Shown one piece after another: positions 43 to 62,639 of a stretch of DNA of 64,000 bases (positions within the stretch are counted from its first letter, which is position 1; every line of letters begins with the position of its first letter). The stretch lies in IMG/VR virus record IMGVR_UViG_3300021087_000002; one strand, 5' to 3'. Below the pieces are notes generated by a model. The model had not been told where the DNA came from, did not search any database, and saw only the letters and a list, made by a program, of their open reading frames with translations. A program made the translations under genes and the position numbers. This stretch comes from an uncultured virus (IMG/VR IMGVR_UViG_3300021087_000002). Lineage: Duplodnaviria > Heunggongvirae > Uroviricota > Caudoviricetes.

Positions 43-534
43 ATGGCAACTTTAACTAAGAACGAGAACTTCCTGCAGCCCACAGGATACAAAGTAAGTA
101 TTAATAGGAAGAATTATCCTAACCTTGAGTTCTTTGTGCAAGCAATTGTACACCCATCAGTATCTGTAGCGCAGACTGAGGTGCAATATTCTCGTGTTGC
201 AGTGCATACACCTGGGGATAAGATCCTATACGATGAGTTGTCTTTAGAGTTACTATTAGACGAAAACTTGACTGGATATAAAGAAATGTACAGTTGGTTA
301 GAACGTTTGGTTCTGCAATCTGAACAGAAAGCAACTGACAGCAATACAGTAGCTACAACTGCGGATATTACATTGTCAATATTGTCTAGTCACAATAACA
401 CAACTAACAAGTTTATCTATAGAGACTGCATTCCTACTTTGATTGGTGCAGTTAACTTAACAGCTAATGCGAGTGATGTGCAGTACATAACAGTACCTAT
501 CTCATTCAGTTTTACCTACTTTGACATCGTATAG
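43..534 (+). CDS. gp3: Tail tube terminator / tail completion protein (T4 gp3-like)
   Basis: NFLQPTGYK N-terminus, gp19/gp3-type composition; position before uvsY-uvsW as in marine T4-like phages. Confidence 0.8.
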   Translation: MATLTKNENFLQPTGYKVSINRKNYPNLEFFVQAIVHPSVSVAQTEVQYSRVAVHTPGDKILYDELSLELLLDENLTGYKEMYSWLERLVLQSEQKATDSNTVATTADITLSILSSHNNTTNKFIYRDCIPTLIGAVNLTANASDVQYITVPISFSFTYFDIV

Positions 535-561
535 ATAAGGTATATAAAATGATTATGGAGT

Positions 562-23925: not shown

Positions 23926-23954
23926 TTTACACTTTTAGCTCCTTATGTTACTAT
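23926..23954 (+). promoter_or_regulatory. Promoter of the tmRNA operon
   Basis: TTTACA-17-TACTAT with TG extension, just upstream of the acceptor piece. Confidence 0.7.
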
Positions 23955-23960
23955 ATAAAC

Positions 23961-24023
23961 TGTAAACGTTGAAGCAACGTGAACGCATACTGGACTTGGG
24001 GGCAGTACCCAACTGCTCCACCA
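23961..24023 (+). ncRNA. ssrA: Two-piece (permuted) tmRNA, acceptor piece (5' end approximate)
   Basis: T-arm TTGGG-GGCAGTA-CCCAA (23996-24012), acceptor strand CTGCTCC, discriminator A, CCA at 24021-24023. Confidence 0.92.
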
Positions 24024-24043
24024 TAAATTATCGGAGTTATATT

Positions 24044-24244
24044 ATGAGTGATTATAAAGATTTGATTGACACCTTTTTAAAAAACGGTGGTGAAATCAAA
24101 AAAGGTAAACCTATGAAGCGCACCAAAGGTGTTAGTGTTCAAAAAATGCAAATAGATGCCCAGACCAAAGGTGATTATAAACAGTGGCAAAAGGGTGAAG
24201 ATAGTTACGAAGAATATCAAAACTATTTAAAAAGAAAACGATAA
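24044..24244 (+). CDS. 66-aa basic protein encoded inside the tmRNA intervening segment
   Basis: SD GGAG at 24033, ATG 24044, TAA 24242-24244; MSDYKDLIDTFLKNGGEIKKGK... Confidence 0.75.
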   Translation: MSDYKDLIDTFLKNGGEIKKGKPMKRTKGVSVQKMQIDAQTKGDYKQWQKGEDSYEEYQNYLKRKR

Positions 24245-24252
24245 TTTATGAT

Positions 24253-24416
24253 GGGGCAGAACTAGGATCGACAGGTGTTGTAGTGAAGTGGAGTTTACCG
24301 GGTGACTGCGAGATTGGTCAAATCACTAAATGCAAACAATAACTTTGCACCATCTGGATTACGCCTAGCGGCATAATCACAGGGGGTTGGCGACTTACCT
24401 AGCAACAGAAAAGTCG
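24253..24416 (+). ncRNA. ssrA: Two-piece tmRNA, coding piece; tag ANNNFAPSGLRLAA* at 24332-24376 (3' end approximate)
   Basis: GGGGCAG pairs with CTGCTCC including G3.U70; GGATCGAC D-loop motif; taaat-GCA resume context; tag ends LAA; 3' pairing cgactt/aagtcg. Confidence 0.92.
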
Positions 24417-24444
24417 TATTAACAATTAACAAGGACGAATAAGA

Positions 24445-25212
24445 ATGAAAACTTTAATCTCTTCTCTAGCAATGGTTGCTACAGCAAGTGTCGTAAATGC
24501 GGCAGATCTTGCAGTAGATGTTGATATTGACATCACAGAAAACACGGCGGGAAAATACACTGCCGCTAAATCAGTAGCACTAGATGTAACTGCCGTAGGC
24601 GATGCCTTTGGTTCAGTTGAAGTAGTTGCTGGATCAGATAACTCACTAAGCATTGGTGACTGGCATGTAGGTACAGCACTTGGCGCAACAAGCGTATCTT
24701 TTGGTAAGCAAGGAAACCTTTTTGTGGAAGGTGAAGCTTCTGCGGCAAACAGCCCACTAGCTAACCCATCAATGGGAACTTCAGCACAAATCGCTATCTC
24801 AGGTGCAAGTGTAGGTCTTTCTTTCACAGACATTGGCACAGATGTAACAGACGTTGCAAGTGTACAAGGTGCATATGAACTTACATTAGGTGGGGTTACA
24901 GCACAAACTTCTGCCGATTATAACATCGATACTAAAGAAATCGCAGTTGGTGCAGGCTTAGGAATTGAAGTACGTGACCAACATGTTGACACAGTAATGA
25001 CATATGCAAATGATGTGTGGGCATACGAAGGTTCAACAACACTTCTAGGTGTTACAGGTTACTTGAATGGTGACCAAAATGACATGACACAGAATGCAGG
25101 TGCATCTTACCTACTTGGTCTTAATGATGCCGCATCTATCGAAAGTAAACTTAATTATGACTTGAACAGTGAAGTACTTTCACCTTCAGTCAACCTATCT
25201 TTCTCATTTTAA
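24445..25212 (+). CDS. Outer-membrane beta-barrel/porin-like protein
   Basis: Signal peptide, alternating amphipathic strands, C-terminal VNLSFSF (terminal Phe). Confidence 0.75.
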   Translation: MKTLISSLAMVATASVVNAADLAVDVDIDITENTAGKYTAAKSVALDVTAVGDAFGSVEVVAGSDNSLSIGDWHVGTALGATSVSFGKQGNLFVEGEASAANSPLANPSMGTSAQIAISGASVGLSFTDIGTDVTDVASVQGAYELTLGGVTAQTSADYNIDTKEIAVGAGLGIEVRDQHVDTVMTYANDVWAYEGSTTLLGVTGYLNGDQNDMTQNAGASYLLGLNDAASIESKLNYDLNSEVLSPSVNLSFSF

Positions 25213-27514: not shown

Positions 27515-28231
27515 ATGAGACATTTTAGAAAACTCATTATGATGAGTGCAATATTACTTGCACCCCTTACACTATACGCTAATGATATCTATATAAAACA
27601 AGTAGGTGATACACTTGACTTAGACATCGTACAAGATGGTCAAAACAACACTATTGGTACTAGTAGCCAAGACGTAGTTCTTGGTTCATCCTCTGGTGCG
27701 TCTGATGACATGACATTCAGTATAACTCAGACAGGTAACACAAACGCAATCACTGCACAAATCTTAGGTTCTACTTACACAGGTACTTGGGATATAACTG
27801 GTAGTGGAAACGAAATAGACTTGCTATGCTCTAGTAGCACAGGTGGAGATTGTGATACCGTTACACTTAACATTGATGCCGATGGCGATAACCAAGACTA
27901 TACTATTAACATAGGACAATCGGCAGATGCTGAAGGTGCAACAGTAAACTTTACAGTTGATGATAGCGGAAACGTGATAACAACAGACATTAACGGCAAA
28001 AGCGCAATCGTAACTGTAACTATTGACGAGAACTCAAGTTTAGCATCAACTAACAGTACGTTAGATATTGATGTAGCTGGCGATGGTGATATAAATGGAC
28101 ACACAATAATACTAGACATGAAAGGTCGTGATCATGCAGTTGTGGTAAACCAAAGCGGAGTATACGACAACATTGTAGACCTTCATACTAATGGTGATGA
28201 TCACCAAATCAATATTACGCAATCTGACTAA
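27515..28231 (+). CDS. Secreted curlin-like (CsgA/CsgB-like) repeat protein
   Basis: Signal peptide; repeats such as IYIKQVGD, IVQDGQNN, ITQTGNTN, VNQSG; rich in D/T/S/G/N. Confidence 0.72.
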   Translation: MRHFRKLIMMSAILLAPLTLYANDIYIKQVGDTLDLDIVQDGQNNTIGTSSQDVVLGSSSGASDDMTFSITQTGNTNAITAQILGSTYTGTWDITGSGNEIDLLCSSSTGGDCDTVTLNIDADGDNQDYTINIGQSADAEGATVNFTVDDSGNVITTDINGKSAIVTVTIDENSSLASTNSTLDIDVAGDGDINGHTIILDMKGRDHAVVVNQSGVYDNIVDLHTNGDDHQINITQSD

Positions 28232-29367
28232 TGCTTAAGTCTCTTGCTTTGTTATTTGTTTTGATAACAACCTCTGCTTATGCAAACATAGGAGAGATTG
28301 TACAGCTATCAGGAAAATCTGGTAGTGCGGCTATTGAGCGTGGTAATGATGCGATTGATACAAGTAAGGGTACTCTTATAGAATTGATGGACACGGCAAT
28401 AACTGCCAAGTCTAAAATGAGAATAGATTTTGTAGATGATACACGAGTTGATATAACAGAACATTCTCGACTAATCATTGATGACTTTGTCTATGATCCT
28501 AATACTGGAAAAGGATCACTTGGTCTTAAAGCAAGTCTTGGCACTGTACGATATGCCAGTGGACAGATTGCTAAGAACAGTAGGCAACGTGTTAGAATAC
28601 GCACACCATCAGCAACGATTGCTGTTCGTGGTACAGACTTTGCAATGGTTATAGATGAAACAGGTGGTAGTATGATTACACTACTTCCGTCTTGTGACAT
28701 TTCTGGATCTTGTTATACAGGAGAGATAACAGTAGAGACTGACGCTGGGTTTGTTATACTTAATAAAGCTTTCCAAGTTACTATAGCTTCTACTAGTACG
28801 AGTAAACCAACACCACCACTTTTGTTGGACATTGATGAAAGTATGATCAATCAACTTCTAATTCTAAGAAAGAAGAACCCATACTATGAAGAACAGACAA
28901 GGTTATTGGATGAGCAAAGAGAGAGGGCAGACTTTTTAGGACTAGACTTCTTACAATTTGATGGATTAGAATATGATGCCTTGGTTGATTCTATAGAAGG
29001 CATCTGGCTTACTGAACTTGATATGGATATAGATTACCTTCAAGACTTATTGTATGACATGCTAGATCAGTTGAATGAAGCATTAAAGAGATTGTTTAGT
29101 GATGAGCTTGCAGATCAGAATGCACTACTATTGAAACAAGAATCAAACATATATGGATACGATCCATTAACAGGAATATCACTAATAAACGAAACACCTA
29201 ATTGGGTGTTCTCTAGAAGAAATGATAGCGGAGAGAACTTCGTACAATTAAGACTAAATCAGGCATATGGTTATACCATAGATCTTCAACAAAACGATTG
29301 GGAGTTATATGACTACAGGTTGGGCGATAGCACTAACAACTCTATTGACATTTATCAGCAACGCTAG
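28231..29367 (+). CDS. FecR-domain secreted protein
   Basis: Signal peptide; FVDDTRVDITEHSRLII, GTVRYASG, IRTPSATIAVRGTDF. Confidence 0.85.
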   Translation: MLKSLALLFVLITTSAYANIGEIVQLSGKSGSAAIERGNDAIDTSKGTLIELMDTAITAKSKMRIDFVDDTRVDITEHSRLIIDDFVYDPNTGKGSLGLKASLGTVRYASGQIAKNSRQRVRIRTPSATIAVRGTDFAMVIDETGGSMITLLPSCDISGSCYTGEITVETDAGFVILNKAFQVTIASTSTSKPTPPLLLDIDESMINQLLILRKKNPYYEEQTRLLDEQRERADFLGLDFLQFDGLEYDALVDSIEGIWLTELDMDIDYLQDLLYDMLDQLNEALKRLFSDELADQNALLLKQESNIYGYDPLTGISLINETPNWVFSRRNDSGENFVQLRLNQAYGYTIDLQQNDWELYDYRLGDSTNNSIDIYQQR

Positions 29368-29728
29368 TTTTGCCAATGACTTAGATATTACTCAGATAGG
29401 TGATGAGTTTATTTTAAGTGTAACTCAAGATGGAGAGAACCATGAGGCAGAAATCATCGTTGATGGTGATGGTAATGATGTGGCATTGACACAGACAGGA
29501 TCGTATAAATACGCATATCTTGATATGGATGGAACCCCACATGACTTTGACATATCTCAGACAGGATCTGGTAATCATTCGGTGACTATAAATATCACAA
29601 CAGGAAGTCAGGGTATGGCAGATATCAATTCAACACAGTATGGAACTAATAGTATGTCATATACTGTTAATGGAAGTTGTTGGGCTGATTACGGTTGTAC
29701 ACTTAACATAAACCAAAACGGTAACTAA
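29309..29728 (+). CDS. Second secreted curlin-like repeat protein
   Basis: Signal peptide ending ASFA; ITQIGD, VTQDGENH, LTQTG, ISQTGSGNH, INQNGN repeats. Confidence 0.7.
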   Translation: MTTGWAIALTTLLTFISNASFANDLDITQIGDEFILSVTQDGENHEAEIIVDGDGNDVALTQTGSYKYAYLDMDGTPHDFDISQTGSGNHSVTINITTGSQGMADINSTQYGTNSMSYTVNGSCWADYGCTLNINQNGN

Positions 29729-31764
29729 TGAAGAAACTATTGAGTCCTTGGTGGGCAATTTTAACTCTAGCAGTCTTGGTATATACATTCGTATATCCAT
29801 CTAACTTTATTCAAAGTATTAAACTCAATTACTTTGACCAGTTAATTGTCAATCAAGATCCTGTTGAGAATAACATCTATATTGCAGAGATCGATGAAGA
29901 AACTCTGAACAAGTATGGACAATACCCCTTTCCAAGAAACGTTTATGGTGATATAATAAAAGGTTTATATGATTCGGGTGCAGGTCTTGTGGTCTGGACA
30001 ATCATGATGCCCGAAGAAGATCGACTAGGTGGTGATGCCTATATGGGAAATATCCTATATGACTATCCTGTCGTTTTATCCTCACGTCCTAGCGATAAGA
30101 CTAAGAACGAACCTATCAATCCAGGTGCGGCTATTATCAATCCAGAGTATTTGGATACAATTTTACCATACAATGGTATAATCGCTAACGTCCCTGTATT
30201 AGAGAATAACTCTGTTGGGGCTGGAATTGTCAGTACAGAACCAGAGATAGATGGTGTGGTTAGACGTATGCCAACTGTTGCTATGGTGGATGGTACTCTT
30301 TATCCTAGTTTGGCACTAGAGACGTTGCGTGTATTAGCAGGCGACATTAGTTTTCAAATCAAAATGCAACCCAATGGTGTAGAGAAGATGAGAATACCAC
30401 AGTTTGGTATTATCCCTACAGACAGTGAAGGTCGTGTATGGATTGATTGGAGTCAAAAGAGTAAGAGAGTATCCTTAACAGATCTTCCTAAAGACTTTGG
30501 TGGTGCAGTTGTTATCGTGGACGTGACAGCCGCAGGTATAACCAACCCAGCGCCTACAGCCATAGGATCTGTATATTCTGGTGAAGTACAAGCGGCAGTT
30601 CTAGGAACAATGTTTAACGGAACTAACATTCAACGTCCTGATTGGGCTTCTATGGCAGAACTACTTGGTCTTGTGGTTGGTGGACTTCTATTAATCGCAT
30701 TAAGCAAATGGATGATAGTAGGGCTGATAGCAACAGTAGGTCTTATTGGATCAGTTATACCATATTCAATGCACATGTATGCTACAGAAAAGATGTTAAT
30801 AGATGTAACAGCCCCTACCATTGTCTTTGTAATCATAGCACTACAAGTATATGGTATTAAGTTTGTTAGAGAATTCTTAGAGAAACAAGCTATTAAGAAA
30901 CAATTTGGTGGATATGCTTCACCAGAAGTTGTGGAGATCCTACAGAAGAACCCACAACTAATTAAAGAAGGTCAGAAGAAAGAAGTAAGTATTGTATTCT
31001 CTGATCTTAGAGGTTTCACCCCATTGGGTGAATCGTTCGGAAATGATGTTAAAGGTTTGACAACAGTGATGAACAATTATATGGATGCAATTACACAACC
31101 TGTGTTAGATGCAAGTGGAATGATCATCAAATACATTGGTGACGCAACTATGCACATACACAACGCTCCTGTTAATGATCCTAGCCATCCGAAAACGGCA
31201 GTTCAGACAGGACTAAACATGCTTAAAGCAGTGGAGAAATTTAATGAAAAACTTATGGAACAAGGTAAACCGCAAGTGGGTATGGGTGCCGGCATTAATA
31301 CTGGCCTTGGTTATATTGGAGAGATGGGTTCTACATCCAGACACTCCTATGATATCCTCGGAGACAGTGTCAGTACAGCCGCAAGACTAGAAAGCGCATG
31401 CAAAGGGTATGGGGTTCTTTTAATTGTAGGACCCCATACCTACAACCTAACAGAAGATGATTTCTTCTATCTCAAACTAGACGATCTTGCAGTTAAAGGT
31501 AAGAGTGTGGGTTTAGAGATATATACGGTATTAGATATTGACCGTAACAAACATGGTGCGGATATGCTCAATCACAACACCATGCATAACTTCTATGGAA
31601 CACAACATTTTGATTCGGCTATTGAGATTTGTAAAGATCTGAAAGGCAAGTTTGAAGGTCATATGGATGACTATTATGACATCTGGATTGAACGTTGTAA
31701 GTATATGAAGACACAAGATCTCCCAAAGGATTGGGATGGGATCTTTAGAGCAACATCAAAATAA
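29728..31764 (+). CDS. CHASE2 sensor plus class III adenylate/guanylate cyclase
   Basis: IDEETL...QYPFPR, DGVVRR, TM bundle, FSDLRGFT, KYIGDA, GDSVSTAARLE, VKGK. Confidence 0.92.
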   Translation: MKKLLSPWWAILTLAVLVYTFVYPSNFIQSIKLNYFDQLIVNQDPVENNIYIAEIDEETLNKYGQYPFPRNVYGDIIKGLYDSGAGLVVWTIMMPEEDRLGGDAYMGNILYDYPVVLSSRPSDKTKNEPINPGAAIINPEYLDTILPYNGIIANVPVLENNSVGAGIVSTEPEIDGVVRRMPTVAMVDGTLYPSLALETLRVLAGDISFQIKMQPNGVEKMRIPQFGIIPTDSEGRVWIDWSQKSKRVSLTDLPKDFGGAVVIVDVTAAGITNPAPTAIGSVYSGEVQAAVLGTMFNGTNIQRPDWASMAELLGLVVGGLLLIALSKWMIVGLIATVGLIGSVIPYSMHMYATEKMLIDVTAPTIVFVIIALQVYGIKFVREFLEKQAIKKQFGGYASPEVVEILQKNPQLIKEGQKKEVSIVFSDLRGFTPLGESFGNDVKGLTTVMNNYMDAITQPVLDASGMIIKYIGDATMHIHNAPVNDPSHPKTAVQTGLNMLKAVEKFNEKLMEQGKPQVGMGAGINTGLGYIGEMGSTSRHSYDILGDSVSTAARLESACKGYGVLLIVGPHTYNLTEDDFFYLKLDDLAVKGKSVGLEIYTVLDIDRNKHGADMLNHNTMHNFYGTQHFDSAIEICKDLKGKFEGHMDDYYDIWIERCKYMKTQDLPKDWDGIFRATSK

Positions 31765-56413: not shown

Positions 56414-56908
56414 ATGAATGATGATAAATTAGGCTACTTGGCTATTGGTGCCGCCGCTATACTAATTGCTTTTACTGCGACAAGTGCAAAGGCAAACAAT
56501 GCAACGCCAATTAACGGTACTATTCAAGATTATTATAAAGTTGTACAAGACAGTGAACCATACACAAAGAAAGAGTGTGTGAATGTAAACGTTCCAGTAT
56601 ATGGTAATGTTACACAAGAAGGAGATGCCGCAGGTGGAGCCTTGCTTGGTATGATCCTTGGTGGTCTTGTTGGTAAAGGTGTTACAGGTGACGATAAAGG
56701 TGCCGCCGCAGGAGCTATCTTTGGTGGTCTTGTTGGTGCCGATAAAGGTGCTAAACCAAAATCTGGACAGGTTGTCACAGGATACCGAACTGAGAACCGT
56801 TGCGATTACGTAACTTATTATCGTACCATTGAGCGTACTGAGTATGATTACTCAATCATTAATTGGAAAATTGACGGTGTTACTTACACAACTGAATTTG
56901 TAAAATAA
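56414..56908 (+). CDS. Secreted glycine-zipper 2TM protein
   Basis: Signal peptide; GALLGMILGGLVG, GAIFGGLVGA; SD aaggag. Confidence 0.8.
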   Translation: MNDDKLGYLAIGAAAILIAFTATSAKANNATPINGTIQDYYKVVQDSEPYTKKECVNVNVPVYGNVTQEGDAAGGALLGMILGGLVGKGVTGDDKGAAAGAIFGGLVGADKGAKPKSGQVVTGYRTENRCDYVTYYRTIERTEYDYSIINWKIDGVTYTTEFVK

Positions 56909-57540
56909 TGAGCGTCACGGAGTATACAGTAGCTCCGATAACCATACAGGAAGCCACACCATTTGTAGAGAATTGGCACTACTCCAAGAATACAAATGGT
57001 TTGGCTACACGATATTGTTTTGGACTGTTTAGAGGATCCGAAATGATTGGTTGTATGATTTACGCCTACTTAGGTATGGCGAGTGTTTGGAAGAAGTATG
57101 GTGAAGTAGAGACAGACGTAGTAGAACTAAGGAGACTATGCTGTATTGACGATACTCCCAAGAACACTGAAAGCTACTTTATAGCGAAAACTATTAAGTG
57201 GTTGAAGGCAGAGACTGATTGTAAAGTAGTAGTGAGTTATGCAGATACCATGCAAGGTCACGTTGGAACTATATACCATGCATCTAACTTCTATCATCTA
57301 GGCATGACAGCCAAGGGTAGATCGATAAAGATTAAAGGTAATAATCGTCTCTATCATGAGAAGACTATTAGGACATACTATCAACCTGTGAACGGAGAAA
57401 GACGTTTGAAACCATATGCTCAGAAGATCAAAGAGCAGTTGGAGAATGGTGAAGCAGAGTATGTCCATAGTGAAGGTAAACACATATTCGTCTATCCTTT
57501 GAATAAAAAAGAGAGACGAAAGTATAGGAAGTTAATATGA
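56908..57540 (+). CDS. Mom-like GNAT adenine-modification enzyme
   Basis: WHYSK, VELRRLC, PKNTESYFI, VVSYAD...GHVGTIYHASNF. Confidence 0.8.
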   Translation: MSVTEYTVAPITIQEATPFVENWHYSKNTNGLATRYCFGLFRGSEMIGCMIYAYLGMASVWKKYGEVETDVVELRRLCCIDDTPKNTESYFIAKTIKWLKAETDCKVVVSYADTMQGHVGTIYHASNFYHLGMTAKGRSIKIKGNNRLYHEKTIRTYYQPVNGERRLKPYAQKIKEQLENGEAEYVHSEGKHIFVYPLNKKERRKYRKLI

Positions 57541-57827
57541 CAAGTTTTATTATGGATTGGTGGAATTTAGTGATGGATCATGAAAGAAATCCATTGTCTA
57601 ACATCAAAGATTTGAGAGTACGTCATCTCGTTATGCAAATACTTGCATGGATGTGGTGTATCGTATTCACGGCAATGACAGGTACATGGATGTACTTGGG
57701 TATCAATATTCTGTTTCACGCATTGCTATTGTGTGGGATCTTTATAACAGTATCGGTGTTCGAAGCCGCTAAACGTAAACCGCAGATCTTTTATACACTG
57801 CGTGGTGAAGGTGGAGAACACGACTAG
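57537..57827 (+). CDS. Small two-TM membrane protein
   Basis: NPLSNI.DLRVRHLVMQILAWMWC. Confidence 0.75.
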   Translation: MTSFIMDWWNLVMDHERNPLSNIKDLRVRHLVMQILAWMWCIVFTAMTGTWMYLGINILFHALLLCGIFITVSVFEAAKRKPQIFYTLRGEGGEHD

Positions 57828-57870
57828 GACGTTCTGGGTAGCACCAGATAATATGGGTTAGCAAATCCCA

Positions 57871-58019
57871 TATGATGAGAAGTGATGTTGCAGTCACAAC
57901 AAAAGGCTCGATGGAAGTATCTCGGCACGAGTTTGCCGTTAGCGAGATAGAGCGGAGTTATACCAAAGGATATTAAACGTACTACAATATCTGACGTTGA
58001 GAACTCTTCTCGCATACCA
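57871..58019 (+). ncRNA. Putative structured ncRNA ending in CCA (unknown family)
   Basis: Terminal stem TATGATGAGAAG / CTTCTCGCATA then CCA; internal hairpins; GC-richer intergenic DNA 8 nt before a tRNA. Confidence 0.55.
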
Positions 58020-58027
58020 CAGATTTA

Positions 58028-58104
58028 GTTTCCTTAGCTCAGTTGGATAGAGCAAGTGCCTTCTAAGCACTAGGTCATAGGTTCGAATCCTATAGGGAAC
58101 ACCA
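58028..58104 (+). tRNA. tRNA-Arg (anticodon TCT)
   Basis: Full cloverleaf: GTTTCCT/AGGGAAC acceptor, AGTGC-CTTCTAA-GCACT, GGTTCGAATCC, encoded CCA. Confidence 0.96.
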
Positions 58105-58115
58105 AACTAGAAGGA

Positions 58116-58649
58116 ATGGTTCATTTGACAAGCCTAGATATGCTAAAGAGGACAGGAACGAATGCTGAGAGTGATGAATGTTATACTCCATCAGATCAGA
58201 TCATTCCTCTTCTTAAATATTTAGATAAGGATAAGACTTACTATGAAGCAACTTCTGGAATCTCTTCTAACATACTTGACGGAATGGTTAAATTCGGTTA
58301 TAATGTGGTTGGAAGTGGGGGAAGAGACTTTTTTGAATGCAATTCTGATGACGTGTTTGATGGGATTATTACTAACCCACCTTATAGTCTAAAGGATAAG
58401 TTCATTGAACACTGCTATTCGTTAGGGAAACCATTTGCGTTATTCCTACCTGTAGCATCTTTCCAAGGTGGTAAACGTGGACAGATGTTCATGGACTATG
58501 GTATGTCATGTTTAGTCTACAATAATAGAGTAGACTTCACAGGTGGTGGTGCACCACATTTTGGTAACGCTTGGTTTATGCATGGGATCCTACCACCCAA
58601 CACGATATATTGGGCTAATAACCCAAAGATGAGAGGAAAGCGAAAATGA
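58116..58649 (+). CDS. N6-adenine/N4-cytosine DNA methyltransferase-like
   Basis: DECYTP, GRDFF, IITNPPYS, KPFALFLP. Confidence 0.8.
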   Translation: MVHLTSLDMLKRTGTNAESDECYTPSDQIIPLLKYLDKDKTYYEATSGISSNILDGMVKFGYNVVGSGGRDFFECNSDDVFDGIITNPPYSLKDKFIEHCYSLGKPFALFLPVASFQGGKRGQMFMDYGMSCLVYNNRVDFTGGGAPHFGNAWFMHGILPPNTIYWANNPKMRGKRK

Positions 58650-59707
58650 AGGTAACAGTAGAACGTGATAAGATCACAGATGAGATCAGCGAGATCTTCG
58701 ACTATGAGTTTGACGGAACATCTACGTTCCATCCTCATGAGATTAATTCATTAGATCGTGAAACCGTTCTATCTGATTTTGGTATTGGTTTAATTGTGGG
58801 ACCTTCGGGATCTGGCAAGACTACTTTACTGAAAGAGTTTGGTGAAGAGTATGAACCTTATTGGTTTGATAACAAATCTATTGCTTCTCATTTCGATGAC
58901 ATCGATGACGTACAGGACAGACTAGGTGCTGTTGGATTTAACTCTGTACCGTCTTGGATGCGTCCCTATCATGTACTATCTAATGGTGAACAGTTTAGAG
59001 CTAGGTTAGCTCGACAGTTAGACAGCAACATTGTTGTTGATGAGTTCACATCTGTTATCGACAGAGATGTTGCCAAGAGTTGTTCTAATGCTATCTCACG
59101 ATATGTTAAGAGACACAACTTAAAGAACATTGTATTTTCATCTTGTCATTATGACATTATTGAGTGGTTGCAACCAGATTGGGTATTTGATACTCAGACT
59201 GGTAAGCTGACCACAAGGGGGTATCAAAGGCCAGATATCGTTCTGGAAATTTTACCTTGTACCAGAGACATCTGGACGCACTTCAGCGACCACCACTATC
59301 TCGACCACAACATCCACAAAGGTGCATCTTGTTGGATCGCAACATGGAACGGCAGACTTGTCGGATTTCTTTCTAGCCTAAGCATGCCTTCGGGCAGTCT
59401 TAAGAATGCATGGAGAGCACATAGAGTTGTGATACTTCCAGAGTTCCAAGGGCTAGGTATTGGTGCCAGACTTATGGATGCCCTAGGTGATATGCACGTT
59501 GCAGAAGGTAAAAGATTCTTTCTCAAAACAAGTCACCCTAGACTAGGCGAATACTGTAATAGAAATGATGCTTGGAAAGGCACATCAAAGAACGGTATTG
59601 CCAGACCTGACTATAAAACTAATTCTAGTACCTATGGCGGATTTGCTGAAGGACTACAAAAGCATATGAATAGAATATGCTATTCCCATGAATATATCGG
59701 AAAATAG
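58646..59707 (+). CDS. ABC-type ATPase fused to a GNAT acetyltransferase
   Basis: GPSGSGKTT, LSNGEQFR, VVDEFTS; HHYL, RVVILPEFQGLGIG. Confidence 0.85.
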   Translation: MKVTVERDKITDEISEIFDYEFDGTSTFHPHEINSLDRETVLSDFGIGLIVGPSGSGKTTLLKEFGEEYEPYWFDNKSIASHFDDIDDVQDRLGAVGFNSVPSWMRPYHVLSNGEQFRARLARQLDSNIVVDEFTSVIDRDVAKSCSNAISRYVKRHNLKNIVFSSCHYDIIEWLQPDWVFDTQTGKLTTRGYQRPDIVLEILPCTRDIWTHFSDHHYLDHNIHKGASCWIATWNGRLVGFLSSLSMPSGSLKNAWRAHRVVILPEFQGLGIGARLMDALGDMHVAEGKRFFLKTSHPRLGEYCNRNDAWKGTSKNGIARPDYKTNSSTYGGFAEGLQKHMNRICYSHEYIGK

Positions 59708-61715: not shown

Positions 61716-62639
61716 TTGAGAAAGTTTTTAAATTATATGGCGGAAGCCGAAGTAATAGACGAGGAGTATATCGAAGCACACTTTGATATTCTTCTTGAAA
61801 AGCTTATTACATTTGGTGGTAAGGCATATCCAAAGTTTGGCAACGTTGTAATCATGGCGGGCGGAGCGGGATCTGGTAAAGGTTTTGTTAAGGATAATCT
61901 AGTTGGACTTGAAGGTAAAGTCTTTGACGTGGATGCTCTTAAGACTGCCGCCGCCAAAGCACCTAAGATTATTGCTAAGGTTAAGGCTGAGACAGGCCAA
62001 GACTTGGCTAAGATCGGTGGTAACCTCAAGAAGGCAAGTAATGTAAGTGCCATGCACGATATCATCTCAAACCTTCTAAACCTACCAGATAAGAAACAGG
62101 CGGCATTCTTTGCTTCTGTATTTTCATCTGCCCCTGATCGTAAGCCTAATATTATTTTTGATGTTACGCTAAAGGATCTACAGAAATTAAATAACATTAC
62201 ACGTCAAGTATCTGCCCTAGGGTATGATAAGAAAAGCATTCACATTGTGTGGGTAGTTAATGATATTGAGGTTGCTAAGGCACAGAACAAGAAGAGGGAT
62301 CGTGTGGTTCCTACTGACATTCTTGTCAACACTCATAGAGGTGCTTCTGCCACCATGAATGATATTGTGAACATGGGTAACGGTCTTAAGAAGTATATGG
62401 ACGGAGATATCGTGTTTGCATTCAATAAGGTTGGTGTAGACAGTGAACTCGTTAAGTCTGGCAAGAGCGGTAAAAAGATTGGCATGAAGGGTAAGACCGA
62501 GGGTGGTCAATATCTAAAGGATGCTGAATACTTCTATGTTAAGCGTAAGGGTGCACGAGCTATTCCTGTAGCCAAGTTGGATAAACAGATACGTATGAAG
62601 ATCTCCAAATATGTACCAAAGGGAGTGGAATGGAACTGA
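61716..62639 (+). CDS. P-loop kinase-like protein (zeta/AAA_33-like) with CTS-like N-terminus
   Basis: MRKFLNYMAE; MAGGAGSGKG, DVD, IFDVT, QNKKRDRVVP. Confidence 0.75.
   Translation: MRKFLNYMAEAEVIDEEYIEAHFDILLEKLITFGGKAYPKFGNVVIMAGGAGSGKGFVKDNLVGLEGKVFDVDALKTAAAKAPKIIAKVKAETGQDLAKIGGNLKKASNVSAMHDIISNLLNLPDKKQAAFFASVFSSAPDRKPNIIFDVTLKDLQKLNNITRQVSALGYDKKSIHIVWVVNDIEVAKAQNKKRDRVVPTDILVNTHRGASATMNDIVNMGNGLKKYMDGDIVFAFNKVGVDSELVKSGKSGKKIGMKGKTEGGQYLKDAEYFYVKRKGARAIPVAKLDKQIRMKISKYVPKGVEWN

What the first reader, a model, noticed from the sequence alone, without database searches (positions are those of the whole stretch)
57828..58019. Unknown ~150-nt structured RNA ending in CCA next to tRNA-Arg
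Seen: 57871-57882 pairs with 58006-58016 (one bulge), followed by CCA. Internal helices: GTGA/TCAC, GCTC/GAGC enclosing TATCTCG/CGAGATA and GGCA/TGCC, and GATATT/AATATC. Two upstream hairpins both contain AGCA (CTGG-gtagca-CCAG; ATATGGG-ttagcaaat-CCCATAT). It is not a cloverleaf. Established: T4 has CCA-ending stable RNAs of unknown function in its tRNA cluster. Inference: a tRNA-processed ncRNA, possibly a decoy for anticodon nucleases.
Basis: partly seen in the sequence, partly recalled or inferred. Interest (0 to 1): 0.7.

Follow-up and report, generated by a model that had tools for sequence, protein, structure and literature searches.

The report
New folded RNA among phage tRNAs
The flagged 192 bases encode a real, strongly conserved folded RNA with a pseudoknot that large uncultured marine phages carry among their tRNA genes, but it does not mimic a tRNA, its final CCA is an accident of this variant, and its job is still unknown.

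Summary
Window 57828-58019 (+) is one complete copy of an uncatalogued structured-RNA family. A covariance model built from relatives matches exactly these coordinates (136.9 bits).

I collected 66 distinct variants (157-221 nt) from viral and marine metagenome contigs. Sixty of them have a same-strand tRNA in the short flanks.

Covariation supports six helices, a variable insert hairpin and a 3-bp pseudoknot: 97.2% of cells are paired against 87.8% in shuffles, and 27 of 42 pairs show compensatory changes.

Its acceptor-like closing stem and two internal helices are not (67.1% paired against 66.5% shuffled). The 3' strand of that stem pairs with 57942-57952 instead.

The terminal CCA occurs in only 5 of 66 variants; 48 end in ATACAC.

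There is no match in Rfam, in GenBank phages, in T4 rnaC/rnaD or in 185,579 species genomes at the sensitivity used.

Most likely it is a stable RNA cut out of the tRNA-operon transcript that acts in trans through its conserved pseudoknotted core. That is inferred; the function is unknown.

The scan appears to have met this family before on other DNA (e1-6074601).

The parts
57828..58019 (+). Whole RNA element (192 nt in this variant; the family ranges 157-221 nt, median 169)
   Evidence: cmsearch with model R1 matches 57828-58019, 136.9 bits, E 4.7e-29, model positions 1-159 of 159, and it is the only hit in the 64-kb window.
57833..57848 (+). H1 hairpin TCTGG / CCAGA with variable loop GTAGCA
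   Evidence: All 5 pairs have compensatory changes and 100% of cells are paired in 66 distinct rows. Coordinates.
57851..57873 (+). H2 hairpin ATATGGG / CCCATAT with loop TTAGCAAAT (57858-57866)
   Evidence: 7 pairs, 4 with compensatory changes, 99.8% paired.
57860..57862 (+). PK1 5' strand: AGC in the H2 loop, pairing with 57906-57908
   Evidence: This pseudoknot was not part of the model's structure. It is 100% paired. The middle pair is GC 33, CG 25, UG 6, UA 2; the third pair is CG 64, AU 1, UA 1. There are at least 10 state changes of the middle pair on the tree.
57906..57908 (+). PK1 3' strand: GCT inside the conserved AAAAGGCTCGATG
   Evidence: See the PK1 5' strand.
57882..57897 (+). 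H3 hairpin GTGAT / GTCAC
   Evidence: 5 pairs, all with at least one compensatory change, 97.9% paired.
57913..57922 (+). Mini-hairpin G-N-A [AGTA] T-N'-C
   Evidence: The middle pair is CG 48, GC 10, AU 8 and is always paired. There are 11 changes on each side on the tree.
57923..57938 (+). H4 hairpin CGGCA / TGCCG; together with the mini-hairpin this is the most conserved core
   Evidence: 100% paired. 4 pairs are invariant and one alternates G-U/G-C, so it is conserved but carries little covariation.
57942..57952 (+). H5 5' strand (GCGAGA, internal loop, GAG), pairing with 58004-58013
Evidence: All 6 outer pairs have compensatory changes (for example AU 23, CG 19, UA 18), with 11-15 changes per pair on the tree.
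58004..58013 (+). H5 3' strand (CTC, T, TCTCGC)
57953..57999 (+). H6 arm with variable-length insert. In this variant the insert is a hairpin GGATATT (57968-74) / AATATCT (57986-92); compact relatives have only a GAAA-type loop.
   Evidence: Insert lengths differ among variants. The insert hairpin is 100% paired in 8 rows, with 2 of 7 pairs compensatory. The H6 lower pairs are mostly G-U and only weakly supported.
57830..57832 (+). Tentative PK2: 5'-terminal CGT with GCG at 57952-57954. It competes with the base of H6.
   Evidence: 95.2% paired. The middle pair is GC 32, AU 21, GU 8, other 1, but there is only one change on the 5' side on the tree, so it may reflect a single event.
58014..58019 (+). 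3' tail ATACCA (family consensus ATACAC)
   Evidence: Tail counts in 66 variants: ATACAC 48, TTACAC 5, ATACCA 4, GTACCG 3, ATACAT 2, and one each of GTACAC, GCACCA, ATCCTT and AGACAC.
58028..58104 (+). tRNA-Arg(TCT), 8 nt downstream on the same strand
   Evidence: ARAGORN; Rfam tRNA 71.7 bits.

Best explanation
The stretch is a gene for a non-coding RNA of a family not yet catalogued. Large uncultured marine T4-like phages carry it once per contig, inside or at the edge of their tRNA gene arrays.

The RNA folds into three 5' hairpins, a conserved core and a long 3' arm. The core consists of a 3-bp pseudoknot between the loop of hairpin 2 and GGSU, the invariant UCGAUG, a 3-bp mini-hairpin and hairpin H4. 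The 3' arm (H5/H6) tolerates inserts.

Inferred mechanism:
- It is transcribed with the neighbouring tRNAs, or in some lineages from its own promoter at the head of the array.
- It is released as a discrete stable RNA by the host's tRNA-maturation nucleases: RNase P at the 5' end of the next tRNA, and endonuclease plus exonuclease trimming behind the previous tRNA.
- It then acts in trans. Its invariant pseudoknotted core would be the binding surface for a protein or RNA partner of the translation or RNA-processing apparatus.

The fold, the family and the genomic setting are shown. Processing, stability and trans-action are inferred. The partner is unknown.
For: - A full-length model match at exactly 57828-58019, and no second copy in the window.
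- 70 of 72 loci searched match. The two that do not are deliberate pattern-only negatives.
- Structure: 97.2% paired against 87.8% shuffled, 27 of 42 pairs compensatory, covariation 0.339 against 0.166 (0 of 500 shuffles reach it), slid controls at most 0.059.
- The pseudoknot is 100% paired with four pair types, although the model did not contain it, and it shows at least 10 changes on the tree.
- Setting: 60 of 66 variants have a same-strand tRNA in the flanks and none has an opposite-strand tRNA. In 36 a tRNA ends within 15 nt upstream (usually 0-3 nt). In 40 a tRNA starts within 40 nt downstream.
- The neighbouring tRNAs differ (Ser, Arg, Trp, Met, Gly, Leu, Glu and others), so the element moves as a unit.
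- One copy in each of 5 contigs of 98-300 kb.
- The window has no promoter-like or terminator-like site at the element. In 8 of 28 variants without a called upstream tRNA, a sigma-70-like site ends 9-16 nt upstream; background is 77 of 1851 windows.
- Not coding: the 63-aa minus-strand ORF is open only in the window-type variants, the longest open frame differs among variants, and indels of 1-2 nt occur in conserved parts.
- L170 has the element with no tRNA within about 500 nt on either side, which argues for an autonomous gene.
Against: - No transcript ends are shown. The four RNA-library runs are assembled contigs that cover the flanking ORFs as well and may contain DNA.
- The thermodynamic z-score is only -1.0.
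- No partner, target or co-occurring gene was identified.
- 11-mer complementarity to the rest of the window is at chance level: 3 hits against 3.0 in shuffles.
- Several close relatives of this phage lack the element, so it is dispensable.
- All homologues were collected with two exact core patterns, so the conservation of that core is partly built into the sample.
Confidence: 0.6

Rival explanations
1. One reading: a tRNA-like, CCA-ending RNA whose long closing stem mimics an acceptor stem and whose AGCA loops mimic anticodon loops, serving as a decoy for host anticodon nucleases.
For: In this one variant the closing stem and the CCA exist. The RNA sits in a tRNA array. Phage tRNA arrays are discussed as counter-measures to tRNA-cleaving defences; that is my own knowledge and was not checked here.
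Against: - CCA occurs in 5 of 66 variants.
- Four of the closing stem's six inner pairs are broken in 25-42 rows, and the whole reader structure is no better than shuffles.
- The stem's 3' strand is taken by the covarying H5.
- The loop of H1 is not conserved, and the AGC of the H2 loop is base-paired in PK1 and changes to ACC, AUC, ACA or ACU.
- ARAGORN and the Rfam tRNA model see nothing tRNA-like.
Confidence: 0.06
2. A cis-acting part of the tRNA precursor: a folded spacer that keeps neighbouring tRNAs from misfolding or directs the order of RNase cuts, and is then degraded.
For: It has tRNA-like spacing on both sides and lies on the same strand. The window has no promoter or terminator of its own.
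Against: - A spacer would not need invariant unpaired nucleotides, a covarying pseudoknot and a conserved core across many different neighbouring tRNAs.
- L170 and 5 other variants have no tRNA in the flanks.
- Most tRNA junctions in the same arrays do without it.
Confidence: 0.12
3. A catalytic or ligand-sensing RNA, for example a self-cleaving ribozyme that cuts at its own 5' edge, thereby freeing the 3' end of the upstream tRNA or detaching the array from the upstream mRNA.
For: - The size, the pseudoknot, the multi-helix junction and the invariant unpaired core nucleotides are typical of ribozymes and aptamers.
- The 5' edge lies 0-3 nt behind the upstream tRNA in most of the 36 variants, and directly behind a stop codon in the window.
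- The 5'-terminal nucleotides may pair into the core (PK2).
Against: - No match to any ribozyme or riboswitch family in Rfam.
- PK2 rests on one evolutionary event.
- Ordinary tRNA-tRNA junctions in the same arrays are equally short and need no ribozyme.
Confidence: 0.08
4. A short protein-coding gene (the 63-aa minus-strand ORF at 57824-58015) or a chance fold.
For: An ATG-started 63-aa ORF covers the stretch on the minus strand. The MFE z-score is weak.
Against: - That ORF is open only in the window-type variants; elsewhere the longest frame differs.
- All other genes are on the + strand.
- There is compensatory base-pair change in 27 of 42 pairs.
Confidence: 0.01

Closest known systems
Phage T4 small stable RNAs RNAC (species 1, rnaC, 139 nt) and RNAD (species 2, rnaD, 119 nt)
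   Same: Both are non-tRNA RNAs of 120-190 nt encoded on the tRNA strand inside the tRNA cluster of a T4-type phage, next to tRNA-Arg(UCU) (T4 annotation; window). The function of the T4 RNAs is unknown (passages read in PMC3014915, and PMC9697503).
   Different: There is no sequence or structure homology: model R1 finds nothing in the T4 locus L187 and blastn finds no GenBank phage. T4 rnaC carries a T-arm-like GGTTCGAATCC and rnaD ends in CACC(A). This family has neither a T-loop nor a conserved CCA and has a pseudoknotted core.
GOLLD and ROOL RNAs (large ornate RNAs of phages and prophages, often beside tRNA genes)
   Same: Both are structured RNAs of unknown function in phage genomes, frequently adjacent to tRNAs. 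That adjacency is my own knowledge; PMC12286853 was seen only as an abstract in the listing.
   Different: GOLLD and ROOL are several hundred nucleotides long. Their Rfam models do not match here, even at E up to 10.
Viral tRNA-like structures and tmRNA (pseudoknotted RNAs with an acceptor end)
   Same: A pseudoknot and a position beside tRNA genes. The same phage also encodes a permuted tmRNA at 23928-24467.
   Different: There is no acceptor/T-arm mimic, no conserved CCA, and no match to the tRNA or tmRNA models.
Self-cleaving ribozymes that cut at their 5' edge (HDV-like, glmS, hatchet)
   Same: A pseudoknotted fold in which the 5'-terminal nucleotides may pair into the core; a size like glmS; the 5' edge coincides with a processing site.
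   Different: No match to their Rfam models, a different order of helices, and no activity tested.

Membership tests
tRNA (cloverleaf; Rfam RF00005) | Cloverleaf with D, anticodon and T arms, recognised by ARAGORN or the Rfam tRNA model | tested here: not met
   ARAGORN finds only tRNA-Arg at 58028-58104. The Rfam tRNA model does not match 57828-58019 even at E up to 10, nor the element in 9 other variants.
   CCA in 5 of 66 variants, ACAC in 55. Four of the stem's six inner pairs are broken in 25-42 rows.
T4 RNAC/RNAD | Encoded within the phage tRNA cluster on the tRNA strand | tested here: met
   60 of 66 variants have a same-strand tRNA in the flanks. In the window, tRNA-Arg lies 8 nt downstream.
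T4 RNAC/RNAD | Homology in sequence or structure to rnaC or rnaD | tested here: not met
   Model R1 has no hit at E up to 1 in L187, which holds rnaC, rnaD and all T4 tRNAs. blastn against 50,697 phage records gives no homologue.
T4 RNAC/RNAD | Matured from the tRNA precursor into a stable small RNA | not testable with these tools
   Only assembled contigs of RNA libraries were available. They show presence, not ends.
Any Rfam 15 family (4227 models) | A match at or near the gathering score | tested here: not met
   Gathering-threshold scan of the window gives only tmRNA and tRNA. The E-value scan gives 11.8 bits at best on the element. Nothing overlaps the element in 9 diverse variants at E up to 5.
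The new family itself (model R1) | A full-length match with H1-H6, PK1 and the UCGAUG/mini-hairpin/H4 core | tested here: met
   136.9 bits, model positions 1-159 of 159. All helices and PK1 are formed in the window copy.

The most novel reading that the evidence does not exclude
The element is a new class of pseudoknotted catalytic RNA that cleaves at its own 5' edge. That cut would produce the 3' end of the preceding tRNA, or detach the tRNA array from the upstream mRNA as in this window. It would be one of several interchangeable RNA modules that giant marine phages use to run their own tRNA supply independently of host nucleases.
Probability: 0.08. Interest if true: 0.85.

Novelty: new variant of a known kind. 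Interest (0 to 1): 0.6.

Why it matters
- Phage T4's RNAC and RNAD have sat unexplained in its tRNA cluster for decades.
- This is an unrelated RNA with much richer comparative data in the same genomic niche: 66 variants, a covariation-proven fold and a pseudoknot. It occurs in abundant marine phages whose contigs suggest genomes of roughly 200-350 kb.
- It gives a defined consensus, clear break-and-restore mutations (PK1, H5, the mini-hairpin) and natural presence/absence pairs of close relatives.
- The question "what do non-tRNA RNAs in phage tRNA operons do?" therefore becomes experimentally approachable.
- It also shows that a CCA end or an acceptor-like stem seen in a single sequence can be an accident.

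Tried and rejected
1. Thermodynamic test: z = -1.0, not informative.
2. blastn of the 200-nt stretch against the 81 loci fetched around the downstream gene: only the 4 identical copies matched. 75 of 81 loci have no tRNA there, so that gene is not a useful anchor.
3. blastn against GenBank phages with two variants: nothing real.
4. T4 rnaC/rnaD as homologues: rejected.
5. My first idea of a closing helix GTAT/ATAC round a three-way junction was dropped. The GTA lies in the loop and closing pair of the covarying mini-hairpin, and both sides are invariant.
6. C/D-box or K-turn reading of TGATGA: the box is not conserved (TGACGA, TGATTGA, TGAATGA in relatives), and the sR24 hit of 11.8 bits is chance.
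7. Antisense target search within the window, including the tmRNA: chance level.
8. Sequencing runs: 6 RNA-library runs hold the stretch. The four I laid are assembled contigs that also cover the ORFs, so they give no ends, no strand and no proof of transcription. Slightly higher contig depth over 57536-58073 in two runs is not interpretable.
9. Cellular genomes: 48 exact matches to the 20-nt core pattern in genome contigs, none a family member by the model (best 11.2 bits, E 0.23). This excludes only close matches of that core.
10. Literature: four full-text searches listed no paper describing this RNA. I judged the listed papers by titles and abstracts only, except the two T4 papers, where I read the passages found. 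Supplements were not opened.

Full report
**What is there**

The window is the replication and nucleotide-metabolism region of a T4-type phage of 37-40% G+C, with all genes on the + strand. It encodes UvsW, family-B DNA polymerase, a DnaB-like helicase and ribonucleotide reductase. It holds a permuted tmRNA at 23928-24467 and one tRNA, tRNA-Arg(TCT), at 58028-58104.

The flagged 192 nt fill the gap between the stop codon of a 96-aa membrane-protein ORF (57537-57827) and that tRNA. Rfam finds nothing there, either at the gathering scores or at E up to 10. The single-sequence fold is not unusually stable: z = -1.0, and 31 of 200 shuffles fold as well. There is no promoter-like or terminator-like site at the element.

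**Relatives**

- The identical sequence lies in three IMG/VR contigs. One of them is the nearest held record, G001.
- Loci fetched round the downstream gene do not carry the stretch.
- Loci fetched round the upstream gene gave two informative hits. One is a 93% identical copy at the same place (L102/L103). The other is an 86% identical 5' half that lies on the other side of that gene, directly behind a tRNA-Pro (L087 and others). So the element moves independently of its protein-coding neighbours but stays with tRNAs.
- After removing pattern-only false positives, 66 distinct full-length variants remained, 157-221 nt with a median of 169.
- No GenBank phage record has a homologue detectable by blastn.
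- None of the 48 pattern matches in one genome per 185,579 prokaryote species is a family member.

**Model and limits**

A covariance model (R1) was built from 20 compact variants with my proposed nested structure.

- It matches the window once, at 57828-58019, over the full model (136.9 bits, E 4.7e-29).
- It matches nothing in 99 other sources, including the T4 tRNA/rnaC/rnaD locus, the Melnitz locus and many close relatives' tRNA regions.
- It matches 70 of 72 pattern-bearing loci. The two misses are false positives included on purpose.
- Each of five contigs of 98-300 kb has exactly one copy. CheckV completeness of 27-86% for these contigs suggests genomes of roughly 200-350 kb.

**Structure**

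The counts below are on the model-made alignment A5 (70 rows, 66 distinct). Six of its rows are badly aligned in the 3' half; I did not remove them.

| Measure | Observed | Shuffled mean | Best slid control |
|---|---|---|---|
| Cells forming a standard pair | 97.2% | 87.8% | 44.8% |
| Pairs with changes on both sides | 27 of 42 | 14.6 | 8 |
| Covariation score | 0.339 | 0.166 | 0.059 |

No shuffle of 500 reached the observed value on any of these measures.

Because A5 was fitted to the nested helices, the cleanest evidence is the pseudoknot PK1, which the model did not contain. AGC in the loop of hairpin 2 (57860-62) pairs with GCU (57906-08):

- it is 100% paired;
- the middle pair occurs as G-C 33, C-G 25, U-G 6 and U-A 2;
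- the third pair occurs as C-G 64, A-U 1 and U-A 1;
- on a tree built from the other columns, the middle pair changes state at least 10 times.

The mini-hairpin's middle pair changes at least 11 times and the H5 pairs change 11-15 times.

A second pseudoknot, PK2 (5'-terminal CGU with GCG at 57952-54), is 95% paired with G-C 32, A-U 21 and G-U 8. Its 5' side changes only once on the tree, so I call it tentative.

The arm H5/H6 carries inserts of very different length. The window's insert hairpin (57968-74/57986-92) is fully paired in the 8 variants that share it, with two compensatory pairs.

Confirmed: both upstream hairpins, GTGA/TCAC, GGCA/TGCC and GATATT/AATATC.

Not supported: the acceptor-like closing stem, GCTC/GAGC and TATCTCG/CGAGATA. 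Counted together on the same alignment, they score:

- 67.1% paired against 66.5% in shuffles (26 of 500 shuffles as high);
- covariation 0.100 against 0.096.

Four of the six inner pairs of the closing stem fail in 25-42 rows. Its four outer pairs are invariant sequence that is already used by hairpin 2 and by the 3' tail.

The CCA is an accident of this lineage. Tails among the 66 variants are ATACAC 48, TTACAC 5, ATACCA 4, GTACCG 3, ATACAT 2 and four singletons; CCA occurs in 5 of 66. The AGCA of loop 1 is not conserved, and that of loop 2 is the pseudoknot strand.

**Setting**

- 60 of 66 variants have a tRNA on the same strand within the short flanks; none has one on the other strand.
- In 36 a tRNA ends within 15 nt upstream, typically 0-3 nt.
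- In 40 a tRNA begins within 40 nt downstream, typically 7-20 nt.
- The neighbours vary: Ser, Arg, Trp, Met, Ala and Pro upstream; Gly, Leu, Arg, Glu and Gln downstream.
- L170 has no tRNA within about 500 nt on either side.

In 8 of 28 variants without a called upstream tRNA, a sigma-70-like promoter ends 9-16 nt before the element (background 77 of 1851 windows). Six of those eight are one lineage. The same 5' boundary is thus reached from a tRNA 3' end, from a promoter, or (in this window) from a stop codon.

**Not coding**

- The 63-aa minus-strand ORF is open only in window-type variants.
- The longest open frame differs among variants.
- Indels of 1-2 nt occur in conserved parts.

**Expression**

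Six RNA-library runs hold the stretch. The four I laid are assembled contigs that also cover the ORFs and may include DNA, so they show neither ends nor transcription. Their contigs break at 57530-57565 and at 58028-58104, with other sequences attached, which shows a strain mosaic round the element.

**Interpretation**

Shown: a real, single-copy, phage-restricted structured-RNA family with a pseudoknotted conserved core, embedded in tRNA arrays.

Inferred: co-transcription with tRNAs, release by tRNA-processing nucleases, stability, and action in trans through the core. I put about 0.6 on that package. The partner is unknown, and no antisense target was found in the window.

**Comparison with what is known**

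The closest known things by setting are T4 RNAC and RNAD. They follow tRNA-Arg in T4, and their roles are still unknown (passages in PMC3014915 and PMC9697503). There is no homology.

Four full-text searches listed no description of this RNA.

Earlier notes of this scan report what is probably the same family on another genome (e1-6074601, sharing 11 of 78 words). They also report several other uncatalogued RNA modules beside tRNA or tmRNA genes of marine T4-like phages. I did not compare sequences with those notes. My own loci show at least two further conserved non-tRNA blocks next to this element (see "noticed in passing").

**Verdict**

This is a new RNA family of a known kind of locus, with unknown function. 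Interest 0.6.

Noticed in passing
window 23928-24467 (+): The phage encodes a permuted (two-piece) tmRNA: ARAGORN gives tag ANNNFAPSGLRLAA*, and Rfam gives tmRNA_permuted at 87 bits and alpha_tmRNA at 86.5 bits.
   Followed up: no
window 28231-29367 and 29728-31764 (+): A FecR-domain ORF followed by a 678-aa ORF with a CHASE2 sensor domain and an adenylate/guanylate cyclase catalytic domain. This is an unusual signalling gene for a phage.
   Followed up: no
window 56908-57540, 58116-58649, 58646-59707, 61716-62639 (+): The genes around the RNA are: a Mom-family protein (E 2.8e-41); a 177-aa ORF with an NPPY motif visible in its translation but no Pfam hit; a P-loop NTPase fused to a GNAT acetyltransferase; and a zeta-toxin-like kinase domain.
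   Followed up: no
L163 about 449-539 (+); also L166, L198, L302, L335, and after tRNA-Leu in L164: A second conserved non-tRNA block of about 90 nt lies between tRNA-Leu(TAG) or tRNA-Asn and this element. It is probably another RNA module of the array.
   Followed up: no
L273 about 192-292 (-); also L243, L275, L286, L309: A conserved block of about 100 nt that ARAGORN does not call as a tRNA follows directly behind the element in five variants. It is possibly a further RNA module.
   Followed up: no
L190 and L179, the 25 nt just upstream of the element: A small hairpin ending in ACCA sits between tRNA-Met and the element. It looks like a minihelix (listing).
   Followed up: no
17 of the 66 variant loci, e.g. 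L196, L226, L232: The tRNA directly upstream of the element is called tRNA-Ser with the unusual anticodon ACT by ARAGORN.
   Followed up: no
window 57530-57565 and 58028-58104: Contigs from RNA-library runs break here and continue into other sequences: another upstream gene end, another tRNA in front of tRNA-Arg, and a different tRNA behind it. This shows a strain mosaic of the tRNA/RNA modules.
   Followed up: partly
G002-G006 (contigs holding L224, L223, L217, L185, L177): CheckV completeness of 27-39% for contigs of 98-137 kb and 86% for a 300-kb contig suggests that the carriers are very large phages of roughly 200-350 kb.
   Followed up: no
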